Notes: generated from the letters alone by a model not told the origin. Positions 324 to 41,390 are shown, counted from the stretch's first letter. The stretch is DNA of 64,000 nt from an uncultured bacterium (GCA_902826395.1 CADEER010000012.1:5049-69048), one strand, 5' to 3'. A program made the numbers and translations.

Positions 324-1808
324 ATGGATGTCGGCACCGGTTTGCTGGCCGGAATGCCCGTGCGAGTCTGGTCGCGGCTGGCCGCCGCCGTCGTGATCCT
401 GCTGTCGTGCGGCGCCTGCCAGAAAGACTCCGGCAAAGACTCCCGCGACGCGCCGTCCGGGGTCGTGTTCGTCCTCGTGGATGCCCTGCGGGCGGATCGG
501 TTGGGGTGCTACGGCAACCCGCGCCCGACGTCGCCCAACATCGACGCGCTGGTCAAGCGAGGCACCCTTTTTCAGAACGCCATTACGGCGGCGCCCTGGA
601 CGCTGCCGACGATGGCTACGATCTGGACGTCGCTGAATCCCTCGGTACACGGAGCGACGCGAATCAGCGATCTGTTCCAGCACGATATCCGTCCGGTGGC
701 CAAGCTGGACGAATCGCGCGTGACCCTGGCCGAGGTGCTGAAGGAGAACGGTTTCAAGACCGGCGCCTTCGTCGACGGCACGTACTGCCGGAAGCCTTTC
801 GGGATGGCGCAGGGCTTCGATGTCTTCCTCGACGCCGAGCTGCCCGGAATCCGGCTGAACGTCGAGTCGATGTTCGATTGGCTCGATCGCGAGAAGCCGG
901 AGCGGTTCTTCGCGTACCTGCACACCGTCGAGGTCCATTCCCCGTACTCACCCGCCAAACTGCGCCCGCCGAAAACCGAGACAAAAGATCTCGTCTGGCA
1001 ACAGATCGACAGCGTGCTCGCCGAGGAGAGAGATCGCTACGAGGAGTTCAACTTCGACCCGGGCTACGAGGGCAAGATCCACGGCTACTGGACCGTTGCG
1101 AAGAAGGAGCGGCGCGGCCTGGAGCCGCTGTCGGAGCCCGATCAGAAGCAACTCTTCGCGTTGTACGATCGCGGCATCGCCTACACGGACTATTGGATCG
1201 GCCAAGTGATCGAAGGGCTGGAAAAGCGCGGTCTGCTCGATCGAACCATCGTGGTCCTGACCGCCGACCACGGCGACGAGCTGATGGACCACGGCGGCGT
1301 CGAGCACGGCGAGACCTTCTACGACGAGATGGTGCGCGTCCCGCTCGTCATACGCGTCCCGGGCCTCGCCGAAGGGCGCTCGATCGAGCAGCAGGTGGGT
1401 CTCGTCGACTTGAAGCCATCCCTGCTGGATCTCCTGGACGTTCCCCACGATCTGCGCATGCAAGGTAGGAGTTTCGCGCCGCTGATGCGGGGTGAGGACT
1501 TTGCCGAATTGCCGGCCTTCTCGGAGGCGAGCATCGTGCCCGGCGAGGGTTCGGTTCGCACCCGCGACTGGAAGTACATCAAGATGCACGGCGGCGAGGA
1601 GCTGTACGACCTGCGCGCGGATCCGCGAGAGCTGACGAACGTTTGCCCGACACGGGCCGATGTCTGTGCGGAGATGGCCGGACAGCTTCGCGCCTGGAGA
1701 AAGCAGAACACCGAGATCGCAGAGCAGCTCGTCCTACCGGCGGCACCCAAGGCGGAAGTCGACGAGGAGACGAAGGAGCGCCTGCGCAACCTCGGCTACG
1801 AGGAGTGA
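324..1808 (+). CDS. Alkaline-phosphatase-superfamily lipoprotein of the type I phosphodiesterase / nucleotide pyrophosphatase (NPP) type; not a true sulfatase
   Basis: It has a signal peptide with a lipobox (VVILLSCGAC). VLVDALRADRLG resembles the NPP metal-binding block. PWTLPTMATIWTSLNPSVHG aligns with the NPP nucleophile block [20 protein letters not shown], with Thr as nucleophile and no C/S-x-P-x-R formylglycine motif. TADHGDELMDHGGVEHG is a distal metal site. The start could instead be TTG 318 or ATG 354. Confidence 0.8.
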   Translation: MDVGTGLLAGMPVRVWSRLAAAVVILLSCGACQKDSGKDSRDAPSGVVFVLVDALRADRLGCYGNPRPTSPNIDALVKRGTLFQNAITAAPWTLPTMATIWTSLNPSVHGATRISDLFQHDIRPVAKLDESRVTLAEVLKENGFKTGAFVDGTYCRKPFGMAQGFDVFLDAELPGIRLNVESMFDWLDREKPERFFAYLHTVEVHSPYSPAKLRPPKTETKDLVWQQIDSVLAEERDRYEEFNFDPGYEGKIHGYWTVAKKERRGLEPLSEPDQKQLFALYDRGIAYTDYWIGQVIEGLEKRGLLDRTIVVLTADHGDELMDHGGVEHGETFYDEMVRVPLVIRVPGLAEGRSIEQQVGLVDLKPSLLDLLDVPHDLRMQGRSFAPLMRGEDFAELPAFSEASIVPGEGSVRTRDWKYIKMHGGEELYDLRADPRELTNVCPTRADVCAEMAGQLRAWRKQNTEIAEQLVLPAAPKAEVDEETKERLRNLGYEE

Positions 1809-1824
1809 TGGCGGGAGCGATCGC

Positions 1825-3306
1825 TCAGCGGGCGTCAGGCGCCCGGCGCGGTGCGCCGGCGGGAACCAGCGGCGGCCTGCCGAATCTGACTTCGCTGCGC
1901 GACAGCACTTCGATCACCCCGCAGTGTGGCGAAGGCTCCTCGCTCAACGTCTTGGGATTCGGGTTGCGCAGCTCGATGCCGTGATCGGCGTAGACGGCGC
2001 TGAGCAGCCCGGAGGTGACGAACCACACCGCGAACAGGTGGCCGCGATCCCAATTCTCGGGCTCGAAGGCGTGCAGCGAGAAGCAGGTGCCGGTCGGCGG
2101 CTCCGGATACTGCTCTCGCATCAGTTCGACGATCCGGAGGTTCAACGCGCCGAGCGGCGCCGTGCCGCGCTCCCAGATGGTCTGGTAGGGGACGGCGGCG
2201 GCGAGGATCAGCACCATCGCCCACTCGATCTGCCGCGCGTGCGTCGCGCCCCAGCGCGCCCACACTGCGTCGAGATGCGCGGCGATCAGCAAGCAGAACG
2301 GCGCCTCCATCGCCATCACCATGCGGTGCTGGGCGAACCAGATTCCGAGGAAGGGCGTCATCGCGACGACCGACCAGGCCAGGGCCAACAGGGAGCGGCG
2401 TGCCAGCGTGCTCACGGTGCCGCGGCTGCCGATGGCCGCGATCCAGCCGGTGGCAACGAGAAGCGCCGCGACAACGGCGTGCAGCCAGTGCTCGTGCGCC
2501 AGCAGCCAGGTGTACGACGCGAGGTTGCGCAACATGTGCCAACCCACGCGCGGTGCGTAGTAGAAAGCGGGGGCGTCCAACAGCGGTGGCGCCAACAGCG
2601 CGAAACGGAAGTAGAGGTACGCGCCGAGCAGCAGTGCGTGCGGCCAGATGCGACGAGCCGTCTCGCGTATGCGCGCGACGGAGCCCCCCGGGGTGTGCCA
2701 CAACGCCAGGACTCCGAGGATGCCCGGCAACGTGGCCCCGAGCTCGTTGCTCAGGAGGGTGAGAACCTGCGCCGCGATCGAGGCGAGCAGCCAGCCCGGA
2801 CGGCGCGTATCCAGATGGGCGAGGAAGCACGACACCGAGACAAGATAGAAGAAGATCGCGCCGACCGGCTGCAGCGCCGATGCCCAGAACAGCTCGTGCA
2901 CGGACGGATACATCAGGACCATCAGACATCCGGCAAAGCACGCGGCGCGCACCGTAAAGCCCAAGCGCAAGGCGATCCGGAACAGGACGATGCCGCTCGC
3001 GAAGTGCACCGCAATCACGAACAGCAAGAACGGAAAGGCGTGGAAACCGTAGAGCGCGAAGAACGCCGAAAAGAACACCTCGATCGTCAGCGGCCGGTAA
3101 CTCCACCACAGCCGCGGCTCGAGCGGCGCGAAGATCTTCCACCAGTCCCGCGGCATCTGCGCCAGCTTCAAGAAGATGAAGTCGTCGCCGTAGAACCATT
3201 CTCGCGATGCCACCCAGACCATCATGGCGAAAGCCAGGGCGGCGACACTGAGCGCGGGTACGACGAAGCCGGCGGGGGATGCGCGGCGCGGTGCCTGCTC
3301 AACCAT
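1825..3306 (-). CDS. Polytopic membrane protein, putative GT-C-fold glycosyltransferase-like
   Basis: The 493-aa ORF has >10 predicted TM helices. An acidic motif (WFYGDDFIF) follows the first TM, as in the first extracytoplasmic loop of GT-C enzymes. A ~90-aa soluble C-terminus follows. It is co-oriented with the next membrane gene, 30 nt downstream of it. Confidence 0.6.
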   Translation of the reverse strand: MVEQAPRRASPAGFVVPALSVAALAFAMMVWVASREWFYGDDFIFLKLAQMPRDWWKIFAPLEPRLWWSYRPLTIEVFFSAFFALYGFHAFPFLLFVIAVHFASGIVLFRIALRLGFTVRAACFAGCLMVLMYPSVHELFWASALQPVGAIFFYLVSVSCFLAHLDTRRPGWLLASIAAQVLTLLSNELGATLPGILGVLALWHTPGGSVARIRETARRIWPHALLLGAYLYFRFALLAPPLLDAPAFYYAPRVGWHMLRNLASYTWLLAHEHWLHAVVAALLVATGWIAAIGSRGTVSTLARRSLLALAWSVVAMTPFLGIWFAQHRMVMAMEAPFCLLIAAHLDAVWARWGATHARQIEWAMVLILAAAVPYQTIWERGTAPLGALNLRIVELMREQYPEPPTGTCFSLHAFEPENWDRGHLFAVWFVTSGLLSAVYADHGIELRNPNPKTLSEEPSPHCGVIEVLSRSEVRFGRPPLVPAGAPRRAPDAR

Positions 3307-3336
3307 CCGCTGCCTCGGGCGCGTGCAATCGACAGC

Positions 3337-4845
3337 TCACAACCACGGCGCGAGCTCGCGAACGAAGCCCTCGTAGAAGCTGCCGTCGGGTGATGCGTGC
3401 AGGGCATCGATGGCGAACGGTCCCGCCTGGCGGTGCACGGTCGCGCCGACGATCACCCAGGGAATTGCGACGAACAGCGCCGTGGCGCCGATGAGCAGCG
3501 CGCAGAGGTGCTGCAGCGCCCACGAGCTGCGCGTCGTGGCGAGCAGATGCGCGGCGAGCGCGGCGAGACACACGGCGGTGACCGTGAACAGGTCCCATTC
3601 GTAGGGTCCGAAGACCGGCCGCACGATGCTCGCGTAGACGAGCATCGCGACGCTCGCCGTGGTCAAGAACGCCGCCTCCGGCGTCGACCATAAACGCCGC
3701 GGCGAGAAGATCGCATACGCGAGCACCACCGGCACAACCGCGGGCGCGAGCAGGAAGAACGAGTTGGCGAGGTACTTGAGGTGGAGGCGCGAGTAGAGCG
3801 CATACTTGCTGCCGCTTTCGGGCTCCCACGGCGGCCGGATCCAAACCGTCTCGTAGTGTTCGCGGCCGCCGCCGACCTCCGACCAGTTGATCAGCTTCGT
3901 CCACGCCAGCATCACATCGCGGCCCTCGCCGATCACCACCAGCAGCACCAGGAATCCCACCAGCGGGACGGCCGTCAGCGACAAGCCCCATGTCCACTGG
4001 ATGATCCGATCGCGCAGCGGCCGCGGTGGCTCTGTCAGAAGGGGAAGCAGCAACAGGCTCGGGATCAGGAAGAGAAAACACAGGTGGATCCACAGGCCGA
4101 AACCGAGTGCGAGACAGGGGACCGTCCAGCCGCAGCGGCCGTTCAGATAGGCGAGCGCGGCCCAGAAGTACGCGGCGAGGCCGATCAACACCACCGAGTA
4201 GACCTCGACGTGGCCGGCGTAGATGCGGGTGACGCCGCCGACGATCATCAGTGCGGTTGCAAACGCCGCCCACCCGGCCCTCGGTGCGAGATAATTGCCG
4301 ACGCGTACGAAGCACCACAGTGCCGGCCATACGGCGAGGCACACGAGCACCTGCACTCCCGCGATCCCTCCCCAACCGCGCGCCTGACCGAACTCGAAGA
4401 ACCATTTCAGCAGGTATGTGGCGCCGACGTCGGGAAAATAGAACTGGGTGTCCCTGGCCGCCAGCGCGAAGAGCAGGATCTTCGAGTCGCCGAGAAAATG
4501 GCGCTCGCGCACCGCCAACAAGAGCAACGGCAGCGCCAGGATCAGCGCCCACACAAACGGAGCTGCCGCCGGTGTGCGGCCGATGGCGTGCAGGCGCGCC
4601 AGAGCGCGCAGGAAGTAGGTGCGGGGAAGAGGTACGCAGAGAGCGAGCACCAGGAACGCCAGCGCGTACGAGACGAACGGCGGCAGGTACTGCCACAGGG
4701 TGAACCCCCAAGCGTGACGAAACGAGGCGACCCAGCCCAGCTCGACCGCGACCAGGGCGATGCAAACCGCCGTCGCCGCGTACAACGCGATGCGGTGCGA
4801 AAGCGATTCCCCGTCGTCCGCCCGGGCTGGCGGGCTGCTGGTCAT
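3337..4845 (-). CDS. Polytopic membrane protein of unknown function (glycan polymerase/ligase- or GT-C-like)
   Basis: The 502-aa ORF is hydrophobic throughout with ~12 TM segments. Codon usage matches the neighbours. It lies antisense to the spurious 5' part of the long + ORF 3781-6801. Confidence 0.6.
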   Translation of the reverse strand: MTSSPPARADDGESLSHRIALYAATAVCIALVAVELGWVASFRHAWGFTLWQYLPPFVSYALAFLVLALCVPLPRTYFLRALARLHAIGRTPAAAPFVWALILALPLLLLAVRERHFLGDSKILLFALAARDTQFYFPDVGATYLLKWFFEFGQARGWGGIAGVQVLVCLAVWPALWCFVRVGNYLAPRAGWAAFATALMIVGGVTRIYAGHVEVYSVVLIGLAAYFWAALAYLNGRCGWTVPCLALGFGLWIHLCFLFLIPSLLLLPLLTEPPRPLRDRIIQWTWGLSLTAVPLVGFLVLLVVIGEGRDVMLAWTKLINWSEVGGGREHYETVWIRPPWEPESGSKYALYSRLHLKYLANSFFLLAPAVVPVVLAYAIFSPRRLWSTPEAAFLTTASVAMLVYASIVRPVFGPYEWDLFTVTAVCLAALAAHLLATTRSSWALQHLCALLIGATALFVAIPWVIVGATVHRQAGPFAIDALHASPDGSFYEGFVRELAPWL

Positions 4846-5091: not shown

Positions 5092-6801
5092 TTGATACGC
5101 CATCTGGGGCCGTGGGCCAGCCGTGCAGCGCTCATCTGTGTCGGCATCGTCGCCGCCCTGGCAATGCTCGAGGGCCTGTTGCGTCTGGGTGGTGTGCTCT
5201 ACGAGTTGCGACCGGGCGCCCGCAGCGGCGTACAACTGGCGAACAGCGACAGCTATCGGGTGCTCTGCCTGGGTGAATCAACCACAGCGGGACTGGCGTG
5301 GGGCGACCGCGCCTACCCGAACCAGCTCGAACGCATCCTGAACGAACGCGCCGGTGGCCGCGCGAAGTTCGCCGTGATCAACGGCGGCAAAGTGGCTACC
5401 ACTACCGATGTGATCGTCGCGCGCCTGCCTGCCATGCTGGACGAGATCGACCCGGATGTCGTCGTCACGATGATGGGCGTCAACGACGGAAAGGCGGTAG
5501 ACCCGTCGTTTCAGGTTGGCGGCGCGTTGCGTGTCTGGAAACTGATGCGGATGCTCTACAACCAGTATCGTCCACCGACCGAGGCGGCGGACGATGTGGA
5601 CGATCTACTCATGCGTGCCCGGGCGACGATGAAGTATTGGCCCGACGTCGCGATCGGATTGGCCGAGCGGATCATTCAGCTAGAGCCCGCCGACGTGCGC
5701 GGCTATCTGGTTCTGGCTGAAGCGCGATTCGCACAAAAGAAGGCCGGGCTGGCGGCCGAAGCGTACCTGAAGGCGCTCGAGCTCGATGGACCTGCAGTCC
5801 TGGCGTATGCGTTCACCGCCGACGAAAAGCTCAGCGACTTCCTCGACGGTGTCTTTGCCCGAGCGGAGACCAGCAGCTACGCGCTGGCAGCGCGCTCGGT
5901 GCTCGGGTTGCGCCGACTCAAACTGGCTGACGCGGATCATTATGCGCGCCGGGCGATCGAGATCGATCCGCACAACGCGATCGCGTTGGTCGTTCACGGG
6001 CGCGTGCTGCAACTGCGCGGTGCCGACATGGAGGCGCGTGTCGCGTTCTACGCTGCTGCCGAAGTGAATCCACGCGTCGTGGAGTTGCTCGAGGGACGCG
6101 GGCTGTTCCGGTCCGCCGCCCTCACTGAGATTGTGAGCGGTGAGGACTTTGTCGATCTCCTGGCGAAGGCGGGACCGGTCACCTCCGACGAACGCTGGTT
6201 GCGCGCCGCCGACGAGGAAGTCCGGGAGCGGTTCCGCGGTCTGCAGTTGGTGAAAAGCTGGGAGCAGATCGCGAATGGAGAGAACAGGGAGGCGGAGGAA
6301 TATCTGCGCCAGTTGGCCGATCCCGAAGCGCAGGTCGAACCGAGTGAACGCCTGCGCGCCTACGGGCAGTTGGCGATCCTGGCCTGGCAGCGCGGTGACG
6401 CCGCGGAAGCCGAGCGCTATCACGATCTGGTCGAAGAGGCGCTCGCCGACGGGGTCAACCCGAACACCCGGAAGAACTACCAGGCCCTGGCGAAGATTCT
6501 CGAAGAACGCGGGATCCCACTGGTCGCCGTGCAGTACCCGATGCGACGGTTGGACCCGCTGCGTGAGATGCTCGCGCCGGCGTCTGATGTCGTGTTCGTC
6601 AGCAACGAGCGAATCTTCAAGGATGCGCTTTTGGGCAGGCCGTATTCCGAAATCTTTGCCGATCTGTTCGCTGGTGACTTCGGACACACGAACATCGAGG
6701 GCAACAACATTCTCGCCGGCAATGTCGCCGAGGCGATCTTGAAGTTGGCACCGCAATCCGCGACCGAAGCGGGGGACGTCGCCGCGGCCGGCGAGGGTTG
6801 A
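5092..6801 (+). CDS. Membrane-anchored SGNH/GDSL-family hydrolase split by a TPR-repeat insertion
   Basis: A TTG start at 5092 follows a GGAGG RBS at 5080-5084. The product has an N-terminal TM helix. SGNH block I (VLCLGESTTAG) and block III (VVTMMGVNDG) are followed by ~300 aa of TPR-like helical repeats, then block V (DFGHTN, a DxxH motif) near the C-terminus. The upstream 1.3 kb of ORF 3781-6801 is spurious antisense of the 3337-4845 gene. Confidence 0.7.
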   Translation: MIRHLGPWASRAALICVGIVAALAMLEGLLRLGGVLYELRPGARSGVQLANSDSYRVLCLGESTTAGLAWGDRAYPNQLERILNERAGGRAKFAVINGGKVATTTDVIVARLPAMLDEIDPDVVVTMMGVNDGKAVDPSFQVGGALRVWKLMRMLYNQYRPPTEAADDVDDLLMRARATMKYWPDVAIGLAERIIQLEPADVRGYLVLAEARFAQKKAGLAAEAYLKALELDGPAVLAYAFTADEKLSDFLDGVFARAETSSYALAARSVLGLRRLKLADADHYARRAIEIDPHNAIALVVHGRVLQLRGADMEARVAFYAAAEVNPRVVELLEGRGLFRSAALTEIVSGEDFVDLLAKAGPVTSDERWLRAADEEVRERFRGLQLVKSWEQIANGENREAEEYLRQLADPEAQVEPSERLRAYGQLAILAWQRGDAAEAERYHDLVEEALADGVNPNTRKNYQALAKILEERGIPLVAVQYPMRRLDPLREMLAPASDVVFVSNERIFKDALLGRPYSEIFADLFAGDFGHTNIEGNNILAGNVAEAILKLAPQSATEAGDVAAAGEG

Positions 6802-9733: not shown

Positions 9734-9797
9734 GAGTGTACCGATGGGTGCCGTATCGACCGTATCCGCGCTTCATGGCCGACAACGAACCGCGCCA

Positions 9798-12936: not shown

Positions 12937-12958
12937 GCGTTATCCGAGCCGCGCGACA

Positions 12959-15055: not shown

Positions 15056-17208
15056 TGCCGGTCCCCTGGAGCTGAGCCGCGGAGCGCACCCTTCGGTGAT
15101 TGCACTGCTTTCGGTTTAGCCGGGCGCACGACGATGCGTTCGACGCCGAGCACATGCGCCGACTCATCGGCGAGTGCGAAGGTCACGTCATATTTGCCGA
15201 GCGCCGTCGGCGCGGTCGCTTTGACGACCACGTCGACGGTGCGACCGGGCGCCAGTGTGATGGGCAACAGTCCTCGGGCGACCTCGGTGTGCACCACCGT
15301 CTGGTCGCGCCGCCAGGTCACGAGCAACTCGGTCGGCTGGATGGGATCGGGATGGCGAAACGTCGCACCGGTGCTGGTGACGCCGAACGGAACGCCGATA
15401 CCGCCGGCATGGGCCGGCAGGCGCGGCGCGGGCGCCGGCGAGAGCGAGTCGAGATCTCGCGAGATCGGTCCATCGGCCACCAAACGCGCTATGCGAATGG
15501 TGTCGCCGGCCGGCAGCGGCACCAGGTGCGCGCCCGCGGCCGGGTCGGCGAGTCCGTTCAGAATCCGGTCGGTGTCGGCGCGGATGCGCTCGATGTCCTG
15601 CGCATGGAAGACGATGCTGCGGAAGCCGAGTGCCCACAGCTCGCGCGCCGCGTCGACGTCGGGTAGCCGCTCGGCGATGCGATTGACCTCGAACTGGATG
15701 GGTGTGTGAAACGACGCCTTACAGGTCGATATGCGGTGCTGGTGGTAGGAGCCGAGCAGCACGTAGTCGCTCAGCTCGCCGATCCAGAAGAAGTTGTAGT
15801 TGCCGGGTAAATCCAACACTGGACCGGGCGGCAGATTGCGCGCGGCCGCGAGATCGCCCTCGGGCGGTCGCAGCCGATAGGTGGCGGCAGGCAGCGCGGC
15901 TCCGAAGCTGCGCCGTGCGACGGCAGGTACGAAGACCTCGATCGCACAAGCTAGCGCGAGCACCGCCAGCGCGATGCCGCGCGCCGCGCTGCCGACCCGG
16001 GTCTCCATGGCGCGAATACCGTAGGCGGCGAGCACCGCCAGAGGCACGATGGCGGCAAAGAATACTTTGTCGGGTGCTCGCACCGCGGCGACACCCGGCA
16101 CATACGAACGCATCAAGTCGCCGAGTGACGGCACGCCGAACTGCGTGCCCGGTACCTGGAGTGGGAACAGGAACCATACCGCCGCCAGCGCTGCGGCAGT
16201 CAGGGGCAATCGCGGGTCGACGGGTCGCTCGCGAGTTTTTCCGAACAGTCGGTCGGCGAGACCCAGCAATGCGAGCAGCGACAGGCAAACGCCAGCGAAG
16301 TAGCGGCCTCCGAACCAGAAGAACCAAGGCGGCCCCTGGAAACCGCCGGGGCGATCGACGAATCCCCAGATCCGGCGGGTCTCGAGATATGGACCGAGTG
16401 CCCACGCCATGGTTACCGCGATGGCAGCGGCGACCGGCACCAGGCGGGGCAGGATCACCGCCAGCGCCGTCCGGTACTTCCAAAGCAGATAGAGTCCGTA
16501 GCTGCCGACGACCAATGCATACTGGATCAGCACGTACATGCTCGACAGCGCCTGCACCGAGGCGAATAGCGCCAGCGCCAGCGCGTCGCGCCAGCGACGT
16601 CGCGCGAAGACGCGGTCGAGAAAGAGCAGAATCAGGGGAATCCATTCGTTGCCGACCACCGACGGGTGTGCGGCATCGCTCAACCTCAGTGGATGGAAGC
16701 CGAACAGAAACCCGGCTAGCAGCGCCGCCCCCCAGCTCGACGTCCAGTGATAAGCCAACGCGTACATCCCCGCGGCGGCGATCCAGGGTTTGATCGTGGC
16801 GACGAAGTTGTAGGTGATGACCGGATCGTCCCAGAGGAGCTGGACCGGCGCGCCGACGATGCCGTCGGCGAGCATGTGCTCTCCGAACGCCACGCCATCG
16901 ACCGGATAGCACATCCACCCGGTGAAGAAGTCCTGCGGCGCGGTGGGCAGAGTCCTCGCGACATACGAAAGCTGTGCGACGCCGCGTTTGAGGTCGCTCG
17001 CCGCGAACTCGACCAGTTTGTCGAGATCGCGCTGCGACTTTCGCGGGAAATCGACGGATGGATCGTAGGTGACTACCGTGGCCGGATCGTTCAGCACGGC
17101 GCGCGAGTTCCACAGGGCGGCGCTCGCGAAGACGCACATCCCCAGCAGGTGCAATCCCCAGCGCATCATGGTCGGGCGAACTCTCATCCAGCAGGCGGGA
17201 CGGCGCAA
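15052..17208 (-). CDS. Large GT-C/YfhO-like membrane protein, paralog 2 of 3
   Basis: The 718-aa ORF is collinear with paralog 1 and ~55-65% identical by eye (FFTGWMCYP...FGEHMLADGI; SYHQHRISTCKASFHTPIQ...ELWALGFR). Confidence 0.8.
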   Translation of the reverse strand: MRRPACWMRVRPTMMRWGLHLLGMCVFASAALWNSRAVLNDPATVVTYDPSVDFPRKSQRDLDKLVEFAASDLKRGVAQLSYVARTLPTAPQDFFTGWMCYPVDGVAFGEHMLADGIVGAPVQLLWDDPVITYNFVATIKPWIAAAGMYALAYHWTSSWGAALLAGFLFGFHPLRLSDAAHPSVVGNEWIPLILLFLDRVFARRRWRDALALALFASVQALSSMYVLIQYALVVGSYGLYLLWKYRTALAVILPRLVPVAAAIAVTMAWALGPYLETRRIWGFVDRPGGFQGPPWFFWFGGRYFAGVCLSLLALLGLADRLFGKTRERPVDPRLPLTAAALAAVWFLFPLQVPGTQFGVPSLGDLMRSYVPGVAAVRAPDKVFFAAIVPLAVLAAYGIRAMETRVGSAARGIALAVLALACAIEVFVPAVARRSFGAALPAATYRLRPPEGDLAAARNLPPGPVLDLPGNYNFFWIGELSDYVLLGSYHQHRISTCKASFHTPIQFEVNRIAERLPDVDAARELWALGFRSIVFHAQDIERIRADTDRILNGLADPAAGAHLVPLPAGDTIRIARLVADGPISRDLDSLSPAPAPRLPAHAGGIGVPFGVTSTGATFRHPDPIQPTELLVTWRRDQTVVHTEVARGLLPITLAPGRTVDVVVKATAPTALGKYDVTFALADESAHVLGVERIVVRPAKPKAVQSPKGALRGSAPGDRQ

Positions 17209-17246
17209 CCTTCCGGGATTCTCCGGCTCGAGGTGCAGCCTGCGAC

Positions 17247-19283
17247 CTACTCGATGACTTTCACGCGTTGCGTCCCGATGATGTGTTCCGGTTGAGCTAC
17301 CGGTGCCAGGGTCACCTGGTAGATCGCGGCCTCGCGAGGTGCGCGATCCGCAACGACGATTTCGGTCTTGTGTCCGGGCGCGAGAGCGAGCGGCAGCAGA
17401 ACCCGCTGCTGCGTGGTCTGCGCAACGGCATCGTCACGGTTCCAGCGCACGACGACTTCCGTCGGCTGTACCGGATCTGGGTGTCGGAACGTCCTGCCGC
17501 CGGCGCTCTGCACGCCGAAGCGCGGCGCGATGTCGGAATTGGCCAGAACCGACCGCTTGCGAGCGACCGGCGCGAGCGAGGCGAAGTCGCTCGTCGTCGG
17601 CCGACCGGCCTCCAGGCGATACACTCGAAGCGTTGCGCCCGATGCGATCGGCTGTAGTCGAGGTCGTGCGTCGGCCCTCGACAATCGTTCGATGATCTCG
17701 TCGGCACGGCGTCGACGATCTTCGTCCTTCTGTCCGGAGAAGATGATCGTTCGCAGGCCGAGTGCCCAGAGCTCCTGGGCCGCGCGCGAGCTTGGCAAGC
17801 GGTCGACGATCGCGGCGATCTCGGTCTGCACCGGGGTTACGAAGGATGCCCGGCACGCTGCGAGCCGGCGTCGATGGTAGGCGCCGAGGAGCGCGTTGTG
17901 ACTCATGAAGAGTGAGCTCGCGCCTTGGTAGGACAACGGTATGTCGAGAACGGGTCCGGGCGGCAGATCGCGCAGCGCCGCCAGATCCTCCGCCGCAGGT
18001 CGGACGTGCAGCGTCGACGTCGGCAGCGGAGATCCAAAACTCACGCTCGCCAATCGGGGATGGAACACCTCGGCGGCGCAGCCCAGCGCGAGACCGGCGC
18101 TGGCCATGATCCGCGTCCTCGGCGAGAGCTTCTCGACCAGGGCCAGCACTCCGTAGGCGGCCATCAAGCCGAGGGGCGCGACGACGAGGAAGTACACGTT
18201 GCCCGGTGCGCGCACCGCATCGAGGCCGGGAAGCCAGGCGCGCAAGAGACGGTCGAGGGACGGCACCGCGAAGTCGGTGCCCGGCACTTGCCATGAGAGC
18301 ACGAACCAGCTCGCCGCCAATGCGAGTGCGGCCATCGGCAGTCGCGGGTCGTGTCCGAGTCGCGATCTAGCTCCGCGCAGCCGGTCCAGCATGCCGACGG
18401 AAGCGAGAATGAGCAGGCCGATCCCGACAAATCGGTGACCGCCGAAATGGACGAACTTCGACACAGTCGGAAAACCCACGCGGTCTTGCAGGACGCCCCA
18501 GATCTCGCGAGTCACCAGATAGGGTCCGAGTACCCAGAAGCCGCTTGCCCCGAGCGCAACCACCACCAGCGCCAGCTTGGGCAGGAGACCTGCTAGCTCG
18601 CCGCGGAATCGCCAAGACAAATAGGTTCCGTAGATGCCGCCGACCAGCGCGAGCTGGAGAACCACGTAGAAGCTCTCGAGAATCTGCAACGCCACGAGCG
18701 CGGCGAGGAGCAGTGCGTCCCGCCAGCGCCTGTTTGCGAAGAGTAACTGTAGTGCGAGCAGAATTGCCGGAAGGATCTCGTTGCCCACCACGGATGGGTG
18801 CGCGAGGTCGCGCAGGCGCATGGGGTGGAAGCCGAACAGAAATCCGGCGATCAGCGCCGCCCCGGAGCTTCCCGTCCAGTAGTACGCCAGCGCGTACATG
18901 CTCACGGCCCCGATCAAGGGCCGCGCAATGACTACGAAGTTGAACGTGACTACGGGGTCGTTCGACAGCAGGTATGCCGGGGCGCCCAGCAGGCCCTCGC
19001 CGAGCATGTGCTCTCCCAGGCTGACGCTGTTCGGAGTCGGGTAACACATCGGGCCTTCGAAGAATCGCCACGGTTCGCGCGTGAGAATTCGGCTGGCATA
19101 GGCCGTCTGGGCGATGTTCCGCCGCACGTCGGATGCCAAGAGGGGACTGTCGGGATAGCTGACCGTGACGAGCGCGGACGGATCTCGCAGCACGGCGCGC
19201 GACGGCCAGAGAGCGGCGATTGCGAACGCACCAACCGCCAGAGCGTGGATTGCAGGGTGTGTTCGCCTACCGGATATGATCAT
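17247..19283 (-). CDS. Large GT-C/YfhO-like membrane protein, paralog 3 of 3
   Basis: The 678-aa ORF has the same architecture (FFEGPMCYP...LGEHMLGEGL; AYHRRRLAACRASFVTPVQ...ELWALGLR). It is the first gene of the three-gene minus-strand operon. Confidence 0.8.
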   Translation of the reverse strand: MIISGRRTHPAIHALAVGAFAIAALWPSRAVLRDPSALVTVSYPDSPLLASDVRRNIAQTAYASRILTREPWRFFEGPMCYPTPNSVSLGEHMLGEGLLGAPAYLLSNDPVVTFNFVVIARPLIGAVSMYALAYYWTGSSGAALIAGFLFGFHPMRLRDLAHPSVVGNEILPAILLALQLLFANRRWRDALLLAALVALQILESFYVVLQLALVGGIYGTYLSWRFRGELAGLLPKLALVVVALGASGFWVLGPYLVTREIWGVLQDRVGFPTVSKFVHFGGHRFVGIGLLILASVGMLDRLRGARSRLGHDPRLPMAALALAASWFVLSWQVPGTDFAVPSLDRLLRAWLPGLDAVRAPGNVYFLVVAPLGLMAAYGVLALVEKLSPRTRIMASAGLALGCAAEVFHPRLASVSFGSPLPTSTLHVRPAAEDLAALRDLPPGPVLDIPLSYQGASSLFMSHNALLGAYHRRRLAACRASFVTPVQTEIAAIVDRLPSSRAAQELWALGLRTIIFSGQKDEDRRRRADEIIERLSRADARPRLQPIASGATLRVYRLEAGRPTTSDFASLAPVARKRSVLANSDIAPRFGVQSAGGRTFRHPDPVQPTEVVVRWNRDDAVAQTTQQRVLLPLALAPGHKTEIVVADRAPREAAIYQVTLAPVAQPEHIIGTQRVKVIE

Positions 19284-19537
19284 CTGCCTGGTGCGGTGTT
19301 CGATCCCGGACAGCCTGCTCGAATCGGTCCGTCATGGCGGATATGCCCGGTGGCCGTTCGGCTTCGCTGGCAATACGGATGTGGTTCTTGGTAGACAAGC
19401 CGACGGCACCGAGTCGACCGATCTTTCCGATCGGGGCGAGGCGAACGAAGGGGCACCAGGATGAGGTCGCCCAGGATCCGTCGCCCATGGTCGATCACCG
19501 GTAGTAGTTCCATGAAAAGTGAATGCAGGAGAGGTTC

Positions 19538-20749
19538 ATGAGAGTTCTCATCACCGGCGTCGACGGCTATCTGGGCTGGGCGCTGTCTCTACATCTGGCC
19601 GGTCGTGGGCACCAGGTGGCCGGCATCGACAACTACTCCCGGCGCGACTGGGTGCAGGAGATGGCATCGCAGTCGGCGACCCCGATTGCCCGCATGTCGG
19701 ATAGGCTCCTCGCCTACTACAAGCGGTTCGGCAAGAATCTGATCTTCCACAAGGGCGATCTGACCGACTTCAACTTCGTCCTGAACGTCTACAAGAGCTT
19801 CCGACCCGAGGCGATCGTCTATCTCGGCGAGATGCCGTCGGCGCCTTACAGCATGCTCGACGTGCACCACGCGGTGTACACGCAGACCAACAACATCGTC
19901 GGCACCCTGATGACCCTGTACGCGATGGCCGATGCGGTGCCCGAGTGTCATCTGGTGAAGCTCGGTACCATGGGCGAGTACGGCACTCCCAACGTCGACA
20001 TCCCCGAGGGCTTCTTCGAGATCGAGTACCGCGGCCGCAAGGACCGGATGATGTTCCCGCGCAAGGCGGGGAGCTGGTACCACCAGTCCAAGGTGCACGA
20101 CACCAACAACGTCGAGATGGCCTGCCGCCTGTGGGGCTTGCGCTCGACCGACATCATGCAGGGTGTGGTGTACGGCACGCGCGTCGATGAGATGGCGGGC
20201 GATGCGCACTTGCTGACGCGGTTCGACTTCGACCAATGCTTCGGCACGGCGATCAACCGCTTCTGCGCGCAGGCAGTCGTCGGTCTGCCATTGACGCCGT
20301 TCGGCAGAGGAACGCAACGACGCGGTTTCCTGCCGCTCCGCGACTCCGTGCAGTGCCTGACGCTGGCGGTGGAAAATCCGCCCGAGGCCGGCGAGTATCG
20401 CGTCTTCAACCAGTTTGAAGAGGTGTACAGCATCATGGAGCTGGCTGAAAAAGTCCGCACGGTGGCGGGCCGCCTCGGCATGGACGTCGAAATCCAGCCG
20501 CTCGAGAACCCGCGCATCGAGGCGGAGGATCACTACTACAATCCCGACCATCGACACCTGCTCGATCTCGGCTACCAGCCGACGCAGGACATGGAGAGCG
20601 AGCTCGAGATCGTGCTCAAGGACCTGCTCGAGTACCGCGATCGCATCGAGGCCCGCCAGGAGGCGCAGTTCCCGGACATCCGCTGGGACCGCGAGCGGCG
20701 CCGCTCGCAGACACTCCCCGCCGCGGGTGAGCGAAAGGCCGCTGGCTGA
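19538..20749 (+). CDS. sqdB: UDP-sulfoquinovose synthase (SQD1/SqdB family SDR)
   Basis: A GGAGAGG RBS sits 3 nt before ATG 19538. The product is collinear with plant SQD1 and bacterial SqdB across diagnostic blocks: RVLITGVDGYLGWA (Rossmann), MPSAPYSMLD, HHAVYTQTNNIVGTL, VKLGTMGEYGTPNVDIPEG, AGSWYHQSKVHD, GTAINRFCAQAVVG, and RVFNQFEEVYSIMELA. Confidence 0.9.
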   Translation: MRVLITGVDGYLGWALSLHLAGRGHQVAGIDNYSRRDWVQEMASQSATPIARMSDRLLAYYKRFGKNLIFHKGDLTDFNFVLNVYKSFRPEAIVYLGEMPSAPYSMLDVHHAVYTQTNNIVGTLMTLYAMADAVPECHLVKLGTMGEYGTPNVDIPEGFFEIEYRGRKDRMMFPRKAGSWYHQSKVHDTNNVEMACRLWGLRSTDIMQGVVYGTRVDEMAGDAHLLTRFDFDQCFGTAINRFCAQAVVGLPLTPFGRGTQRRGFLPLRDSVQCLTLAVENPPEAGEYRVFNQFEEVYSIMELAEKVRTVAGRLGMDVEIQPLENPRIEAEDHYYNPDHRHLLDLGYQPTQDMESELEIVLKDLLEYRDRIEARQEAQFPDIRWDRERRRSQTLPAAGERKAAG

Positions 20750-20768
20750 CGAGCCGCGGCGGGCGCAG

Positions 20769-21770: not shown

Positions 21771-21785
21771 GGCCGCGAGGCGAGC

Positions 21786-22841
21786 ATGGGATCGATCTCG
21801 GTCTTGCGGCTGATCGGCGTCGTCGCCGGCTTGTACGTCGTCGCGTCGGCGTTCTGGGGATTCCGCGCGCGGCGGATCAACCGTCGCGAGACGCTGGTCC
21901 GCTGGCTGGTCGGCGGCGGCCTGGTCGTCGTCAGTCTGTTTCCCGACAGCATCAATTTCCTCCGCGACGTGCTGGCCCTCGATTCGGATGCGTACGGCAG
22001 GCTCCTCGCCCTGCTCGTCGTCTCGAACCTGCTCATCTGGCTGCTGTTCCTGCGCCAGCGCGGCAAGGTCTATCTGCTCGGCCGCCACCTCGACGGCCTG
22101 GTGCGAAGCTCGATGGTGCTGCGCAACCCCGAAGAGGGCCTCGCCAACCTGCCGGCCGGCGTCGACGTGCTGGTCGTGCTGCCGGCGTACAACGAAGAGC
22201 AAAACCTGCCCGGGGTGCTGGCGCGAATGCCCAAGGAGATCGACGGGTACACCGTCGGCGTCGCGGTGATCGACGATGGCAGCGAGGACGCCACTCGCCG
22301 CGTCGCTCTCGAGGCGGGAGCCGGCGTCGTGTCCAATCCGATCCGCCGCGGCCAGGGGGCGGCGTCGCGCCTCGGCTACGATCTGGCGCGGCGACTCGAT
22401 GCCAAGGTGGTGGTCACCCACGATGCCGACGGCCAGCACAGCCCCGAGGAGATCGCCACGGTGATCCGGCCGATCCTCGCCGGCGACAAAGATTTCGTCA
22501 TCGGCTCGCGACTGTTGGGCGAGCGCGAGAGCGACAGCCAGGTGCGCCTGGTAGGCATCCACGTCAACAACTTGCTGATCAACTTCCTCGCCGGCACCGG
22601 GGTGTCGGACTGCTCGAGCGGTTTCAAGGCGATCCGCGTCGAATCGCTGAAACAGTTCGAGCTCGCCGAGGACCAGTTTCAGGCAGCCGAAGCGATCATC
22701 GCCGCGGCGAAAGCCGGGCTGCGCATCGGCGAGGCGCCGATCACCGTAAAGCGGCGGTGGACTGGCGAGAGCAAGAAGGGCCGCAATTTCAGCTACGGCC
22801 TCAACTTCACGCGCACCGTGCTCAAGGCCTGGTGGAAGTGA
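21786..22841 (+). CDS. Polyprenyl-phosphate glycosyltransferase (GT2, DPM1/GtrB/ArnC-like) with an N-terminal 3-TM extension
   Basis: VLVVLPAYNEE, AVIDDGSEDAT (DxD) and VVTHDADGQHSPEE are GT2 DPM1-family blocks. The first ~100 aa form three TM helices (DUF2304-like). Confidence 0.8.
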   Translation: MGSISVLRLIGVVAGLYVVASAFWGFRARRINRRETLVRWLVGGGLVVVSLFPDSINFLRDVLALDSDAYGRLLALLVVSNLLIWLLFLRQRGKVYLLGRHLDGLVRSSMVLRNPEEGLANLPAGVDVLVVLPAYNEEQNLPGVLARMPKEIDGYTVGVAVIDDGSEDATRRVALEAGAGVVSNPIRRGQGAASRLGYDLARRLDAKVVVTHDADGQHSPEEIATVIRPILAGDKDFVIGSRLLGERESDSQVRLVGIHVNNLLINFLAGTGVSDCSSGFKAIRVESLKQFELAEDQFQAAEAIIAAAKAGLRIGEAPITVKRRWTGESKKGRNFSYGLNFTRTVLKAWWK

Positions 22842-23596
22842 AAGCCGACGCCGCCGCACCCGCTAGCCCGGTCCGCGACTTCTACGAGGCGAAGTATCTC
22901 GCCGGCGAGGAGATCCAGCGCACCAGCAAGCTGTACACGCTCGACTGTGTTCCCGCGGCCGGGGCGCTGGAGATCATCGACATCGGCTGCGGCACTGGGC
23001 ACAACTCGCGAGCGATGGCCGCCAGGGGACACCGCGTGCGGGGCATCGACATCTCCGAGCACGCCATCGCGCGGTACCGGGAGAGCGGCTTCGACGGCCG
23101 CACGATGGATATCGAGCGCGGGCTCGAGTTCGCCGACGAGTCGTTCGATCTGGCCTTCTGCTCGGAGGTGATCGAACATCTCGTCCGTCCGGAGCGCTTC
23201 GCGGCGGAGGTGCGCCGCGTGCTGCGCCCGGGCGGCCGCTTGGTGCTGTCGACGCCGAACTCGGCCTTCTGGCTCTACCGCGTCCTCGCCGTGTTCGGCT
23301 GGGTCGTCAGCGACGTCCAACACCCCATGCACCTGCGCTTCTTCACGCGCGCCAGCCTGCGCCGTCTGCTGGAGGGAGCGGGTTTCCGCGTCGACACGGC
23401 GCTCGGCCGCAACATGTACCTGATCCTGCCGGACCCGCGCCTCGAAGCGCTGCGGTCGCTCTATCGCGCGGTGGGCCTGCGCGAGGAGATCCGCTTCACG
23501 ACCAAGAAGAGCTTCTGGCACCTGTCGTCGCGGTCCGGCTTCTGGAGCTCCTTGTTCGCGGACACGCTGATCTTCGCCGTCGTCAAAGACCGCTGA
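22838..23596 (+). CDS. Class I SAM-dependent methyltransferase
   Basis: A GTG start overlaps the GT2 stop (GTGA). IIDIGCGTGHNS is motif I. It has a ~250-aa Methyltransf_11/23-like fold. Confidence 0.8.
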   Translation: MKADAAAPASPVRDFYEAKYLAGEEIQRTSKLYTLDCVPAAGALEIIDIGCGTGHNSRAMAARGHRVRGIDISEHAIARYRESGFDGRTMDIERGLEFADESFDLAFCSEVIEHLVRPERFAAEVRRVLRPGGRLVLSTPNSAFWLYRVLAVFGWVVSDVQHPMHLRFFTRASLRRLLEGAGFRVDTALGRNMYLILPDPRLEALRSLYRAVGLREEIRFTTKKSFWHLSSRSGFWSSLFADTLIFAVVKDR

Positions 23597-41365: not shown

Positions 41366-41390
41366 CAATCAGTAGCGCGGGCCGTAAAGG

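What the first reader, a model, noticed from the sequence alone, without database searches (positions are those of the whole stretch)
324..23596. Expanded three-component (GT2 + flippase + GT-C) extracytoplasmic glycosylation locus with seven GT-C-like membrane proteins
About 23 kb is filled almost entirely with envelope-glycan machinery. There is a DPM1/GtrB/ArnC-like polyprenyl-phosphate glycosyltransferase with its own 3-TM anchor (21786-22841). There is a flippase-like LPG-synthase-TM-family protein (11968-12936). There are at least seven large polytopic proteins whose architecture matches GT-C / YfhO / DUF2723 transferases that use polyprenyl-P-sugar donors outside the membrane (TM1, then a ~100-aa acidic extracytoplasmic loop, then a multi-TM core and a soluble C-terminal domain). 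Accessory enzymes are also present: two membrane-anchored SGNH hydrolases that could O-acylate or de-esterify a glycan, an NPP-type phosphodiesterase lipoprotein, and a SAM methyltransferase. Known CsbB-GtcA-YfhO, GtrABX and ArnC-ArnEF-ArnT systems have one transferase. Here the transferase arm is multiplied sevenfold, and the flippase is of a different family (PF03706-like rather than GtrA). That combination does not match any described system I know of.
Basis: partly seen in the sequence, partly recalled or inferred. Interest (0 to 1): 0.85.

Follow-up and report, generated by a model that had tools for sequence, protein, structure and literature searches.

The report
Multi-GT-C envelope glycosylation island with sulfoquinovose synthase

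Summary
Window 318-23596 contains 15 tightly packed genes, all related to envelope glycans.

Confirmed parts:
- A GT2 fused to a three-helix DUF2304 (GacJ/Rv3632-like) anchor, with intact DxD motifs.
- A PF03706/UPF0104 flippase-like protein.
- Two membrane-anchored SGNH proteins, one SAM methyltransferase and one alkaline-phosphatase-superfamily lipoprotein.

Seven large polytopic proteins:
- Two match Pfam GT-C-type families (PMT_2, TMEM260-like).
- Three tandem paralogs give only weak PTPS_related matches.

In 57 of 80 GT2-anchored loci from about six phyla, an SqdB-family gene lies within 10 kb. In 27 it lies directly upstream on the same strand.

My best reading is a three-component-type system whose donor is polyprenyl-phosphate-sulfoquinovose or a derivative. 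This rests on genomic context only.

The general scheme is already known, including variable flippases, multi-GT-C versions and UPF0104 proteins as predicted flippases. I rate it a new variant of a known kind.

The parts
318..1808 (+). g1: alkaline-phosphatase-superfamily lipoprotein of the Sulfatase family, probably with a Thr nucleophile. It is not a formylglycine sulfatase.
   Evidence: PF00884 3e-49, PF01663 8.6e-12. T-L-P-T-M aligns with the C/S-x-P-x-R motif of PDB sulfatases. Lipobox LLSC.
1825..3306 (-). g2: orphan GT-C-fold membrane protein, 493 aa, with an invariant D42 in a WFYGDDF motif just after TM1.
   Evidence: No Pfam, NCBIfam or PDB sequence hit. Only 15 homologs in 5.8e9 proteins. 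AF2 pLDDT 86.5. The top 30 Foldseek PDB hits are all GT-C: Pmt4, AglB, STT3, PglB, ArnT.
3337..4845 (-). g3: orphan GT-C-fold membrane protein, 502 aa, with an invariant D120 in an RER..GDS motif.
5092..6801 (+). g4: membrane-anchored SGNH hydrolase or acyl-transfer protein with TPR repeats.
   Evidence: PF13472 3.8e-11 plus weak TPR hits. N-terminal TM. Start chosen at a TTG preceded by GGAGG.
6798..8606 (+). g5: GT-C transferase of the PMT_2 (ArnT/GT39-like) family.
   Evidence: PF13231 1.6e-09, 38.6 bits against a 26.1 cut-off. About 8 TM helices and a 90-aa first loop with 8 acidic residues.
8591..9733 (-). g6: membrane-anchored SGNH/AlgX-like protein.
   Evidence: PF13472 5e-12, PF16822 ALGX 1.3e-06. 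N-terminal TM.
9798..11807 (-). g7: GT-C transferase of the TMEM260-like (DUF2723) family.
   Evidence: PF11028 1e-20, 74.7 bits against a 24.2 cut-off. PPGDTHEF motif in the first loop.
11968..12936 (+). g8: UPF0104/PF03706 flippase-like membrane protein, the candidate flippase for the lipid-linked sugar.
   Evidence: PF03706 6e-44. TIGR00374 72.8 bits against 43.2. Homologs recur next to sqdB and the DUF2304-GT2 in L010, L094-096, L098, L103, L105, L110 and L113.
12959..15055 (-). g9: first of three tandem paralogs, a probable GT-C-like protein. It has TM1, an acidic loop of about 78 aa, a multi-TM core and a soluble C-terminal domain of about 270 aa.
   Evidence: 53% and 48% identical to g10 and g11. 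PF10131 reaches only 8.7 bits.
15052..17208 (-). g10: tandem paralog, a probable GT-C-like protein distantly related to PTPS_related.
   Evidence: PF10131 27.8 bits against 26.4. The family has 3512 representatives at E<=1e-3. Colinear weak PF10131 hits appear in 9 of 10 members tested. hhalign against the g2 family gives 16% probability.
17247..19283 (-). g11: tandem paralog, a probable GT-C-like protein.
   Evidence: PF10131 30.9 bits against 26.4. 48% identical to g10.
19523..20749 (+). g12: UDP-sulfoquinovose synthase ortholog (SQD1/SqdB/Agl3 family), the first gene of the g12-g15 operon.
   Evidence: NF041015 567.7 bits, full length, against a 575 cut-off. PDB SQD1 1qrr/1i24 E 4.5e-128, 47% identity over 385 aa. 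GTMGEYG and YHQSKVH motifs match the [ST]MG..Yx3K fingerprint (PMC8987622).
20769..21770 (+). g13: GalE-like NDP-sugar 4-epimerase or dehydratase of the SDR superfamily.
   Evidence: PF01370 3e-55. Best PDB relatives are UDP-glucose and UDP-GlcNAc 4-epimerases (4zrm, WbpP, WbgU). g13-like genes also sit beside sqdB in many metagenome loci.
21786..22841 (+). g14: fused DUF2304 (GacJ/Rv3632-like, 3 TM) and GT2 polyprenyl-phosphate glycosyltransferase (GacI/PpgS/AglJ/DPM1-like).
   Evidence: PF00535 7.4e-22 and PF10066 24.2 bits. Best NCBIfam hits are AglJ, PpgS and ArnC, all below cut-off. D163, D164, D213 and D215 are invariant.
22838..23596 (+). g15: class I SAM-dependent methyltransferase. 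Its start overlaps the g14 stop by 4 bp.
   Evidence: PF13489 2.5e-25, PF08241 4e-25. Conserved after the GT2 in the syntenic relative L004.

Best explanation
The island is a three-component-type, polyprenyl-phosphate-sugar-dependent system for glycosylating envelope molecules outside the cytoplasmic membrane.

Proposed pathway:
1. In the cytoplasm the g12-g15 operon makes UDP-sulfoquinovose from UDP-glucose and sulfite (g12).
2. g13 may 4-epimerise it, and g15 may methylate it.
3. g14, a GacJ-GacI/Rv3632-PpgS-type fusion, transfers the sugar to polyprenyl phosphate.
4. The UPF0104 protein g8 flips the lipid-linked monosaccharide.
5. Seven GT-C or GT-C-like enzymes from five unrelated families (g2, g3, g5, g7, g9-11) transfer it, and possibly other polyprenyl-P-sugars made elsewhere, to several acceptors or positions on periplasmic glycans or proteins.
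6. Two SGNH proteins and an alkaline-phosphatase-superfamily lipoprotein edit acyl or phospho substituents.

Shown here: the domain and fold identities, intact catalytic motifs, synteny, and the cross-phylum linkage of sqdB with this GT2.

Inferred: the donor sugar, the flipping step, the acceptors, and the roles of g13 and g15.
For: - GT2: DPM1/GacI-type with invariant DxD motifs and a DUF2304 anchor. GacJ (DUF2304) activates GacI, and fused forms are known.
- g12: a full-length SQD1/Agl3 ortholog with the TMG..Yx3K fingerprint.
- Operon structure: g12-g13-g14-g15 have gaps of 19 bp, 15 bp and -4 bp.
- Cross-phylum linkage: of 80 genome loci anchored on g14 homologs (Actinomycetota, Chloroflexota, Desulfobacterota, Myxococcota, Acidobacteria, Planctomycetes, Alphaproteobacteria), 57 carry an SqdB-family gene within 10 kb. 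In 27 it lies directly upstream on the same strand, and in 4 one gene lies between, as in this window.
- Ten sampled SqdB-like proteins match only NF041015, at 449-562 bits.
- A minimal module recurs: a DUF6541 13-TM protein, sqdB, DUF2304-GT2 and a PF03706 flippase-like protein (L010, L094, L103).
- No GT4 or GT8 SQDG synthase lies in the island.
Against: - No biochemical data exist for any protein in the island.
- g12 and all sampled homologs score below the NCBIfam equivalog cut-off (567.7 against 575).
- A closer GT2 relative (59% identity, L005) has no sqdB within 10 kb. 17 loci with enough upstream DNA also lack it.
- The closest g12 relatives at about 70% identity sit with GT4, Wzx or UGDH genes rather than with this GT2. 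UDP-sulfoquinovose therefore also feeds conventional cytoplasmic pathways.
- GT-C status of g9-11 is not established.
- The flippase activity of UPF0104 proteins has not been demonstrated.
- The 80 loci were ranked by similarity to a GT2 that is itself sqdB-linked, so the 57/80 figure describes one GT2 subfamily only.
Confidence: 0.55

Rival explanations
1. The three-component machinery is as described, but the lipid-linked sugar is an ordinary hexose or N-acetylhexosamine. g14 would use UDP-Glc, UDP-Gal, UDP-GlcNAc or UDP-GalNAc, with g13 as its epimerase. g12 would supply UDP-sulfoquinovose to a different transferase encoded elsewhere.
For: - The characterised relatives GacI, PpgS, AglJ and GtrB use GlcNAc, GalNAc or hexose.
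- L005 keeps the epimerase and GT2 without sqdB.
- Many sqdB genes pair with GT4 or Wzx clusters instead.
Against: - sqdB lies directly upstream of this GT2 subfamily in 27 loci across several phyla, often with gaps of 4-8 bp and no epimerase.
- No other cytoplasmic glycosyltransferase in the island could use UDP-sulfoquinovose.
Confidence: 0.25
2. g12 and g14 make a membrane sulfolipid as an end product, either polyprenyl-P-sulfoquinovose or another beta-sulfoquinovosyl lipid. This would be an anionic, phosphate-sparing lipid. The GT-C-like proteins would be neighbours that use other donors.
For: - Sulfoquinovose is best known as a lipid head group.
- Several Actinomycetota loci (L029, L033, L065) have the sqdB-GT2 pair with no polytopic neighbour within 10 kb.
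Against: - The pair recurs with a flippase-like gene and a large polytopic protein, namely DUF6541, DUF6077 or PMT_2.
- All characterised GT2s of this subfamily make donor intermediates.
- In this window the pair sits inside a conserved 15-gene island.
Confidence: 0.1
3. The genes are unrelated membrane proteins that happen to be neighbours, so there is no functional system.
For: - The seven polytopic proteins fall into five families with no detectable mutual similarity.
- The genes are split into seven alternating transcription units.
Against: - All 15 genes belong to envelope-glycan functional classes.
- The island is syntenic in an independent contig at 58-88% identity for the genes where identity was measured.
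- A relative at 59% GT2 identity shows another multi-GT-C island.
Confidence: 0.03

Closest known systems
GacI-GacJ-GacK-GacL (Streptococcus pyogenes group A carbohydrate GlcNAc side chain)
   Same: A GT2 makes a polyprenyl-P-monosaccharide. A DUF2304 three-TM partner activates it. A flippase and a GT-C transferase complete extracytoplasmic addition. GacJ-GacI fusions are reported in Geobacter and Desulfuromonas.
   Different: - Here DUF2304 is fused to the GT2.
- The flippase candidate is UPF0104/PF03706, not the flippase GacK.
- There are seven GT-C-like genes instead of one.
- The operon starts with a UDP-sulfoquinovose synthase.
PpgS-Rv3632 with the GT-C Rv3779 (Mycobacterium tuberculosis galactosamine on arabinogalactan)
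   Same: A GT2 polyprenyl-P-sugar synthase is stimulated by a DUF2304 protein. PpgS is the second-best NCBIfam match for g14. The link to a nearby epimerase and to Rv3779 comes from my own knowledge.
   Different: g14 scores 92 bits against a 370 cut-off, so it is not a PpgS equivalog. The sugar, the flippase and the number of transferases all differ.
GtrA-GtrB-GtrC, CsbB-GtcA-YfhO and ArnC-ArnE/F-ArnT three-component systems
   Same: The logic matches: a lipid-P-sugar synthase, a flippase and a GT-C.
   Different: There is no GtrA/SMR-type flippase. The transferase arm is multiplied. SGNH, alkaline-phosphatase-superfamily and methyltransferase accessory genes are present.
Citrobacter youngae ORF12-15 pentofuranose system and relatives (PMC11127046)
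   Same: It shows that the flippase family varies (MATE there). [quoted passage not shown]
   Different: There the donor comes from PRPP through a phosphoribosyl transferase, not from a GT2. The sugars are pentofuranoses.
Mycobacterial arabinan/mannan assembly (Emb, Aft, Mpt and PimE using decaprenyl-P-arabinose or polyprenyl-P-mannose)
   Same: One lipid-linked monosaccharide donor feeds many GT-C enzymes, which build or extend a periplasmic glycan. AftA, AftB, AftD, Emb and PimE are among the fold matches for g2 and g3.
   Different: The mycobacterial genes are scattered in the genome. There is no sequence-level relationship, and the donors and phylum differ.
Sulfolobus acidocaldarius agl1-agl4 cluster (sulfoquinovose in the N-glycan)
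   Same: A UDP-sulfoquinovose synthase (Agl3) lies next to a membrane-bound glycosyltransferase (Agl1) that is predicted to transfer sulfoquinovose into a surface glycan.
   Different: This is an archaeal system. Transfer is proposed to go directly from UDP-sulfoquinovose to a dolichol-linked glycan on the cytoplasmic side. No flippase-like or GT-C partners are described. I could not compare the Agl1 sequence.

Membership tests
Three-component extracytoplasmic glycosylation systems (Gtr/Gac/CsbB-YfhO/Arn type) | A GT2 polyprenyl-phosphate glycosyltransferase with intact DxD catalytic motifs | tested here: met
   PF00535 7.4e-22. Best NCBIfam hits are AglJ, PpgS, Dol-P-hexose transferase and ArnC. 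D163, D164, D213 and D215 are invariant in 12 homologs.
Three-component extracytoplasmic glycosylation systems (Gtr/Gac/CsbB-YfhO/Arn type) | At least one GT-C-fold transferase encoded with the GT2 | tested here: met
   g5 PMT_2 and g7 TMEM260-like pass the Pfam cut-offs. The g2 and g3 models match only GT-C structures at the top of the hit lists.
Three-component extracytoplasmic glycosylation systems (Gtr/Gac/CsbB-YfhO/Arn type) | A flippase of the GtrA/SMR, Wzx or MATE type | tested here: not met
   No such Pfam family appears among the 15 genes. The only candidate is PF03706/UPF0104 (g8), which is a predicted and unproven flippase family.
Three-component extracytoplasmic glycosylation systems (Gtr/Gac/CsbB-YfhO/Arn type) | Formation, flipping and GT-C-dependent transfer of a polyprenyl-P-monosaccharide | not testable with these tools
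   This needs lipidomics and enzyme assays.
GacJ/Rv3632 (DUF2304) activator domain | A match to PF10066 at the gathering score | tested here: inconclusive
   The window protein scores 24.2 bits against a 25.5 cut-off. Many full-length homologs carry a precomputed PF10066 hit. Three TM helices are found at residues 4-89.
UDP-sulfoquinovose synthase (SQD1/SqdB/Agl3) | The NCBIfam NF041015 equivalog cut-off of 575 bits | tested here: not met
   567.7 bits with a full-length match. Ten homologs next to GT2 genes score 449-562 bits.
UDP-sulfoquinovose synthase (SQD1/SqdB/Agl3) | The [ST]MG...Yx3K fingerprint and full-length similarity to SQD1 | tested here: met
   GTMGEYG and YHQSKVH are present. 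47% identity over 385 aa to PDB 1i24/1qrr, E 4.5e-128. The fingerprint is taken from PMC8987622. GTMGEYG occurs in 60 of 60 SqdB-like ORFs.
Sulfolipid (SQDG) pathway: SqdB with SqdX or SqdD | A GT4 or GT8 sulfoquinovosyl-diacylglycerol synthase encoded with sqdB | tested here: not met
   There is no GT4 or GT8 domain in the island or among the ORFs scanned in the rest of the window. A GT4 does accompany sqdB in another lineage, L147.
Formylglycine-dependent sulfatases (for g1) | The C/S-x-P-x-R formylglycine motif | tested here: not met
   T-L-P-T-M aligns to the motif position. The family-level PF00884 hit itself is strong.
GT-C (for g9, g10, g11) | Membership of a GT-C-clan Pfam family, or a GT-C fold | tested here: inconclusive
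   PF10131 PTPS_related scores 27.8, 30.9 and 8.7 bits against a 26.4 cut-off. Colinear weak hits appear in 9 of 10 relatives. Profiles give no PDB hit. hhalign against the g2 family gives 16%. That PF10131 belongs to the GT-C clan is from memory.

The most novel reading that the evidence does not exclude
Polyprenyl-phosphate-sulfoquinovose, or a 4-epimer or methylated derivative, is an undescribed lipid-linked sugar donor. A conserved sqdB plus DUF2304-GT2 pair would make it in at least six bacterial phyla. After flipping, GT-C enzymes would use it to attach a sulfonated sugar to envelope glycans or proteins. The seven-transferase island in this Myxococcota-like genome would be its most elaborate form. 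That would add a non-photosynthetic, non-lipid pool of sulfoquinovose to bacterial cell surfaces.
Probability: 0.4. Interest if true: 0.85.

Novelty: new variant of a known kind. Interest (0 to 1): 0.62.

Why it matters
If the donor is polyprenyl-P-sulfoquinovose, bacteria from soil and sediment phyla would carry a permanently anionic, sulfonated sugar on their envelopes.

Sulfoquinovose is so far documented in thylakoid-type sulfolipids and in a few archaeal N-glycans. An envelope pool would bear on surface charge, phage and predator recognition, and the environmental sulfoquinovose budget.

The island also supplies testable material:
- Two orphan GT-C families (g2, g3), with 15 and 41 homologs in the searched protein collection.
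- One large uncharacterised family (g9-11; 3512 cluster representatives).
- Repeated genomic support for UPF0104 proteins as flippases of lipid-linked sugars.

If the sugar proves ordinary, the locus is still a useful but unsurprising example of an expanded three-component system.

Tried and rejected
- **Sequence searches against the PDB.** Searches of g2, g3, g10 and their family profiles found nothing. Fold assignment therefore had to come from AF2 models, and only two jobs were allowed, so g9-11 stayed unmodelled.
- **Profile-profile comparisons among the membrane families.** All were non-significant: g2 vs g3 at 2%, g9-11 vs g2 at 0.6% and 16%, g9-11 vs g3 at 0.3%, and DUF6541 vs g9-11 at 10%. 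I do not claim the families are related to each other.
- **g1 as a true sulfatase that pairs with the sulfo-sugar.** Rejected. The formylglycine motif is absent. From established chemistry, a sulfatase would not cleave the C-S bond of a sulfonate.
- **An SQDG lipid pathway.** Rejected for this island, because no GT4 or GT8 gene is present.
- **A shared regulatory motif.** The three divergent intergenic regions share nothing longer than 9 nt.
- **RNA genes.** tRNA and Rfam scans of the window found nothing.
- **Meyer et al. 2011 (PMC4391026).** The paper is not held. The agl1-agl4 neighbourhood is cited from PMC4388408 instead.
- **Literature searches for a lipid-linked sulfoquinovose.** Searches combining sulfoquinovose with polyprenyl, undecaprenyl, dolichol or GT2 found no description in the held library. 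This is not proof that none exists.

Full report
**Gene map.** The window has about 66% GC, so I called genes by third-codon-position GC. Between 318 and 23596 there are 15 genes:

| Gene | Coordinates | Strand |
|---|---|---|
| g1 | 318-1808 | + |
| g2 | 1825-3306 | - |
| g3 | 3337-4845 | - |
| g4 | 5092-6801 | + |
| g5 | 6798-8606 | + |
| g6 | 8591-9733 | - |
| g7 | 9798-11807 | - |
| g8 | 11968-12936 | + |
| g9 | 12959-15055 | - |
| g10 | 15052-17208 | - |
| g11 | 17247-19283 | - |
| g12 | 19523-20749 | + |
| g13 | 20769-21770 | + |
| g14 | 21786-22841 | + |
| g15 | 22838-23596 | + |

To the right lie unrelated genes: an alcohol dehydrogenase, an epoxide hydrolase, Lon, a Rieske oxygenase and a 1868-aa UvrA-like protein. 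The ORFs scanned in the rest of the window are housekeeping genes. The island's right boundary is therefore real. On the left, the window cuts a minus-strand membrane ORF.

**Checking the observation.**
- g14 has a GT2 domain (PF00535 7.4e-22) behind three TM helices that match DUF2304 (24.2 bits, just under the 25.5 cut-off).
- g8 is PF03706 (6e-44) and passes TIGR00374 'flippase-like domain-containing protein'.
- g4 and g6 are membrane-anchored SGNH proteins. g4 also has TPR repeats, and g6 has an AlgX-like region.
- g15 is a class I SAM methyltransferase.
- g1 is a lipoprotein (lipobox LLSC). It is a Sulfatase-family member of the alkaline-phosphatase superfamily. T-L-P-T-M replaces the C/S-x-P-x-R formylglycine motif, so a Thr nucleophile is likely, as in NPP, LtaS and EptA enzymes.

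**The seven polytopic proteins.**
- g5 passes PMT_2 (38.6 bits against 26.1). g7 passes TMEM260-like/DUF2723 (74.7 bits against 24.2).
- g2 and g3 have no Pfam, NCBIfam or PDB sequence match, even at E<=10. Both are rare: 15 and 41 homologs among 5.8 billion proteins, and the named ones come from Myxococcota MAGs.
- AlphaFold2 models built on these alignments are confident (pLDDT 86.5 and 90.0).
  - For g2, the top 30 Foldseek PDB hits are all GT-C enzymes: Pmt4, AglB, STT3, PglB, ArnT, ALG9, DPY19, AftA/B and Emb.
- Each family has an invariant Asp near the N-terminus: D42 in g2, in WFYGDDF right after TM1, and D120 in g3, in RER..GDS.
- A distant g3 homolog sits directly after an epimerase, a sugar nucleotidyltransferase and a short GT2 in another MAG (L088). 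That is the classic context for a transferase that uses polyprenyl-P-sugar.
- g9, g10 and g11 are tandem paralogs, 48-53% identical. They have TM1, an acidic loop of about 78 aa with a nearly invariant Asp (D72, g10 numbering), a multi-TM core and a soluble C-terminal domain of about 270 aa.
  - Their family is large: 3512 representatives at E<=1e-3.
  - Its only database link is a weak but consistently colinear match to PF10131 PTPS_related. g10 and g11 score 27.8 and 30.9 bits, g9 scores 8.7, and 9 of 10 tested members hit the same region.
  - I recall PF10131 as a GT-C-clan family but could not verify that here.
- In summary, four of the seven are established as GT-C and three are probable.

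g12 is a UDP-sulfoquinovose synthase ortholog.
- It gives a full-length match to NF041015 at 567.7 bits (cut-off 575).
- It is 47% identical over 385 residues to Arabidopsis SQD1 (E 4.5e-128).
- It has the T-M-G...Y-x3-K fingerprint that separates SQD1/Agl3 from other sugar-nucleotide SDRs (PMC8987622).
- g13 is a GalE-like epimerase.
- g12-g13-g14-g15 lie on one strand with gaps of 19 bp, 15 bp and -4 bp. This is an operon in which the only glycosyltransferase is the DPM1/GacI-type GT2.

**Comparative evidence, anchored on the GT2.** I scanned one genome per GTDB species with an alignment of g14 homologs. I then searched the 80 best loci with all island proteins.
- The fused DUF2304-GT2 occurs in Myxococcota, Desulfobacterota, Chloroflexota, Actinomycetota, Acidobacteria, Planctomycetes, Alphaproteobacteria and haloarchaea.
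- In 57 of 80 loci an SqdB-family gene lies within 10 kb.
  - In 27 it lies directly upstream on the same strand (within 150 bp, often 4-8 bp).
  - In 4 loci one gene lies between, as in this window.
- All 60 SqdB-like ORFs found in the fetched loci have GTMGEYG. Ten sampled ones match only NF041015, at 449-562 bits.
- The large membrane proteins of the window are not conserved at sequence level outside its lineage. Functionally similar neighbours recur instead:
  - DUF6541 (13 TM) and PF03706 in Delta proteobacterium NaphS2.
  - DUF6077, PMT_2 and an NPP-type phosphodiesterase in Anaerolineae and Acidobacteria.
  - A MATE/Wzx-like protein, DUF6077 and an AT3-SGNH acyltransferase in Actinomycetota.

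**Comparative evidence, anchored on g12.** The reciprocal scan used g12 against metagenome contigs.
- The 75-80% identity group repeats the module DUF6541 - sqdB - DUF2304-GT2 - PF03706.
- The ~70% identity group pairs sqdB with a g13-like epimerase and with GT4, Wzx or UDP-glucose-dehydrogenase genes, without this GT2.
- UDP-sulfoquinovose therefore seems to enter bacterial glycans by more than one route. The GT2 route is one of them.

**Synteny.** A JGI contig (3300076801 Ga0645780_03236; L004 plus L087) carries the whole island.
- Protein identities are 66% for g2, 69% for g3 and 58-88% for g8-g15. g1 and g4-g7 match with phmmer E-values of 1e-154 or better.
- That contig has one extra sulfatase-like gene, two extra unannotated proteins of about 570 aa, and one relocated paralog.
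- A Myxococcales MAG whose GT2 is 59% identical has a different multi-GT-C island. It contains PTPS_related, DUF6798, DUF6541, PMT_2 and a second, unfused DUF2304 plus GT2 pair, but no sqdB within 10 kb.
- Expanded GT-C islands are thus a trait of this lineage. Their sugar supply may vary.

**Mechanism.** The best-supported model is a three-component-type pathway: UDP-Glc plus sulfite gives UDP-sulfoquinovose (g12), with possible epimerisation (g13) and methylation (g15). g14 then makes polyprenyl-P-sulfoquinovose, g8 flips it, and GT-C enzymes transfer it to several acceptors or positions. SGNH and alkaline-phosphatase-superfamily enzymes edit the product.
- Five unrelated GT-C families in one island suggest several acceptors or linkages. 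They could also build an oligomer or polymer in the periplasm, as mycobacterial Emb, Aft and Mpt enzymes do. I cannot tell these apart.
- Domain identities, folds, motifs, synteny and gene linkage are shown. The donor sugar, flipping, acceptors and accessory roles are inferred.

**Comparison with known systems.**
- GacI/GacJ/GacK/GacL and PpgS/Rv3632 are the closest relatives of the donor-forming step. GacJ-GacI fusions have been noted before.
- Kelly et al. 2024 show that the flippase family varies between three-component systems. They also mention systems with multiple GT-Cs.
- COG0392/UPF0104 is already annotated as a predicted flippase, and GpgF is a recent example.
- In Sulfolobus, the sulfoquinovose synthase Agl3 lies beside a membrane-bound glycosyltransferase, Agl1.
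- I found no description of a polyprenyl- or dolichyl-phosphate-sulfoquinovose donor, or of a bacterial sqdB plus GacI-type GT2 pathway, in the held literature.

**Verdict.** The island is a new variant of a known kind. Its main value is the testable prediction of a lipid-linked sulfoquinovose donor. Interest is 0.62.

Noticed in passing
L033:6945-8330, L065:7195-8778 (Actinomycetota genome loci): A class V aminotransferase (Aminotran_5, the cysteine desulfurase family) sits directly upstream of the sqdB and DUF2304-GT2 pair. Enzymes of this family can release sulfite from cysteine sulfinate, so it could supply sulfite to the sulfoquinovose synthase. That idea is speculation.
   Followed up: partly
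L114-L164 metagenome loci (for example L147:439-4117, L149:9995-13701, L123:177-4351): sqdB is often followed by a g13-like epimerase, and then by a GT4, a UDP-glucose dehydrogenase or a Wzx flippase. This suggests that sulfoquinovose or its 4-epimer enters conventional bacterial polysaccharide pathways.
   Followed up: partly
P0191 (926 aa) and P0198 (994 aa), homologs of g10: Some members of the g9-11 family carry a C-terminal FGE-sulfatase (formylglycine-generating enzyme-like) domain or an esterase (BD-FAE/Abhydrolase_3) domain.
   Followed up: no
window 318-1808: The Sulfatase-family lipoprotein has T-L-P-T-M instead of the C/S-x-P-x-R formylglycine motif. The syntenic relative has two such genes (L087:14898-17851). 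A separate sqdB locus has an LtaS/EptA-like version with 5 TM helices (L117:7849-9831).
   Followed up: partly
L005/L006 (Myxococcales MAG, 59% GT2 identity): This is a second type of multi-GT-C island. It has two DUF2304/GT2 sets (one fused, one split), a third GT2, and PTPS_related, DUF6798, DUF6541 and PMT_2 proteins. No sqdB lies within 10 kb.
   Followed up: partly
window 29698-35304 (-): A single 1868-aa ORF carries UvrA-type domains (UvrA_inter in two stretches, UvrA_DNA-bind, ABC_tran in two stretches) and looks like a double-length UvrA paralog. A 1699-aa counterpart is conserved at the same position in the relative L004.
   Followed up: no
window 1-160 (-): A truncated ORF at the left edge begins MPESSPRPQTYLGVFLVTLATLMQQILLTRIFSVTMWYHF. 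It probably corresponds to the 812-aa membrane protein with a weak spermine-synthase hit that flanks the island in the relative (L087:18044-20482).
   Followed up: no
window 40743-45677: This stretch has weak or short gene calls and the lowest GC in the window (0.627 at 40-42 kb). No tRNA or Rfam family was found there.
   Followed up: no
window 52229-53758 (+): A WS/DGAT wax-ester synthase/diacylglycerol acyltransferase gene is present. It is unrelated to the island.
   Followed up: no
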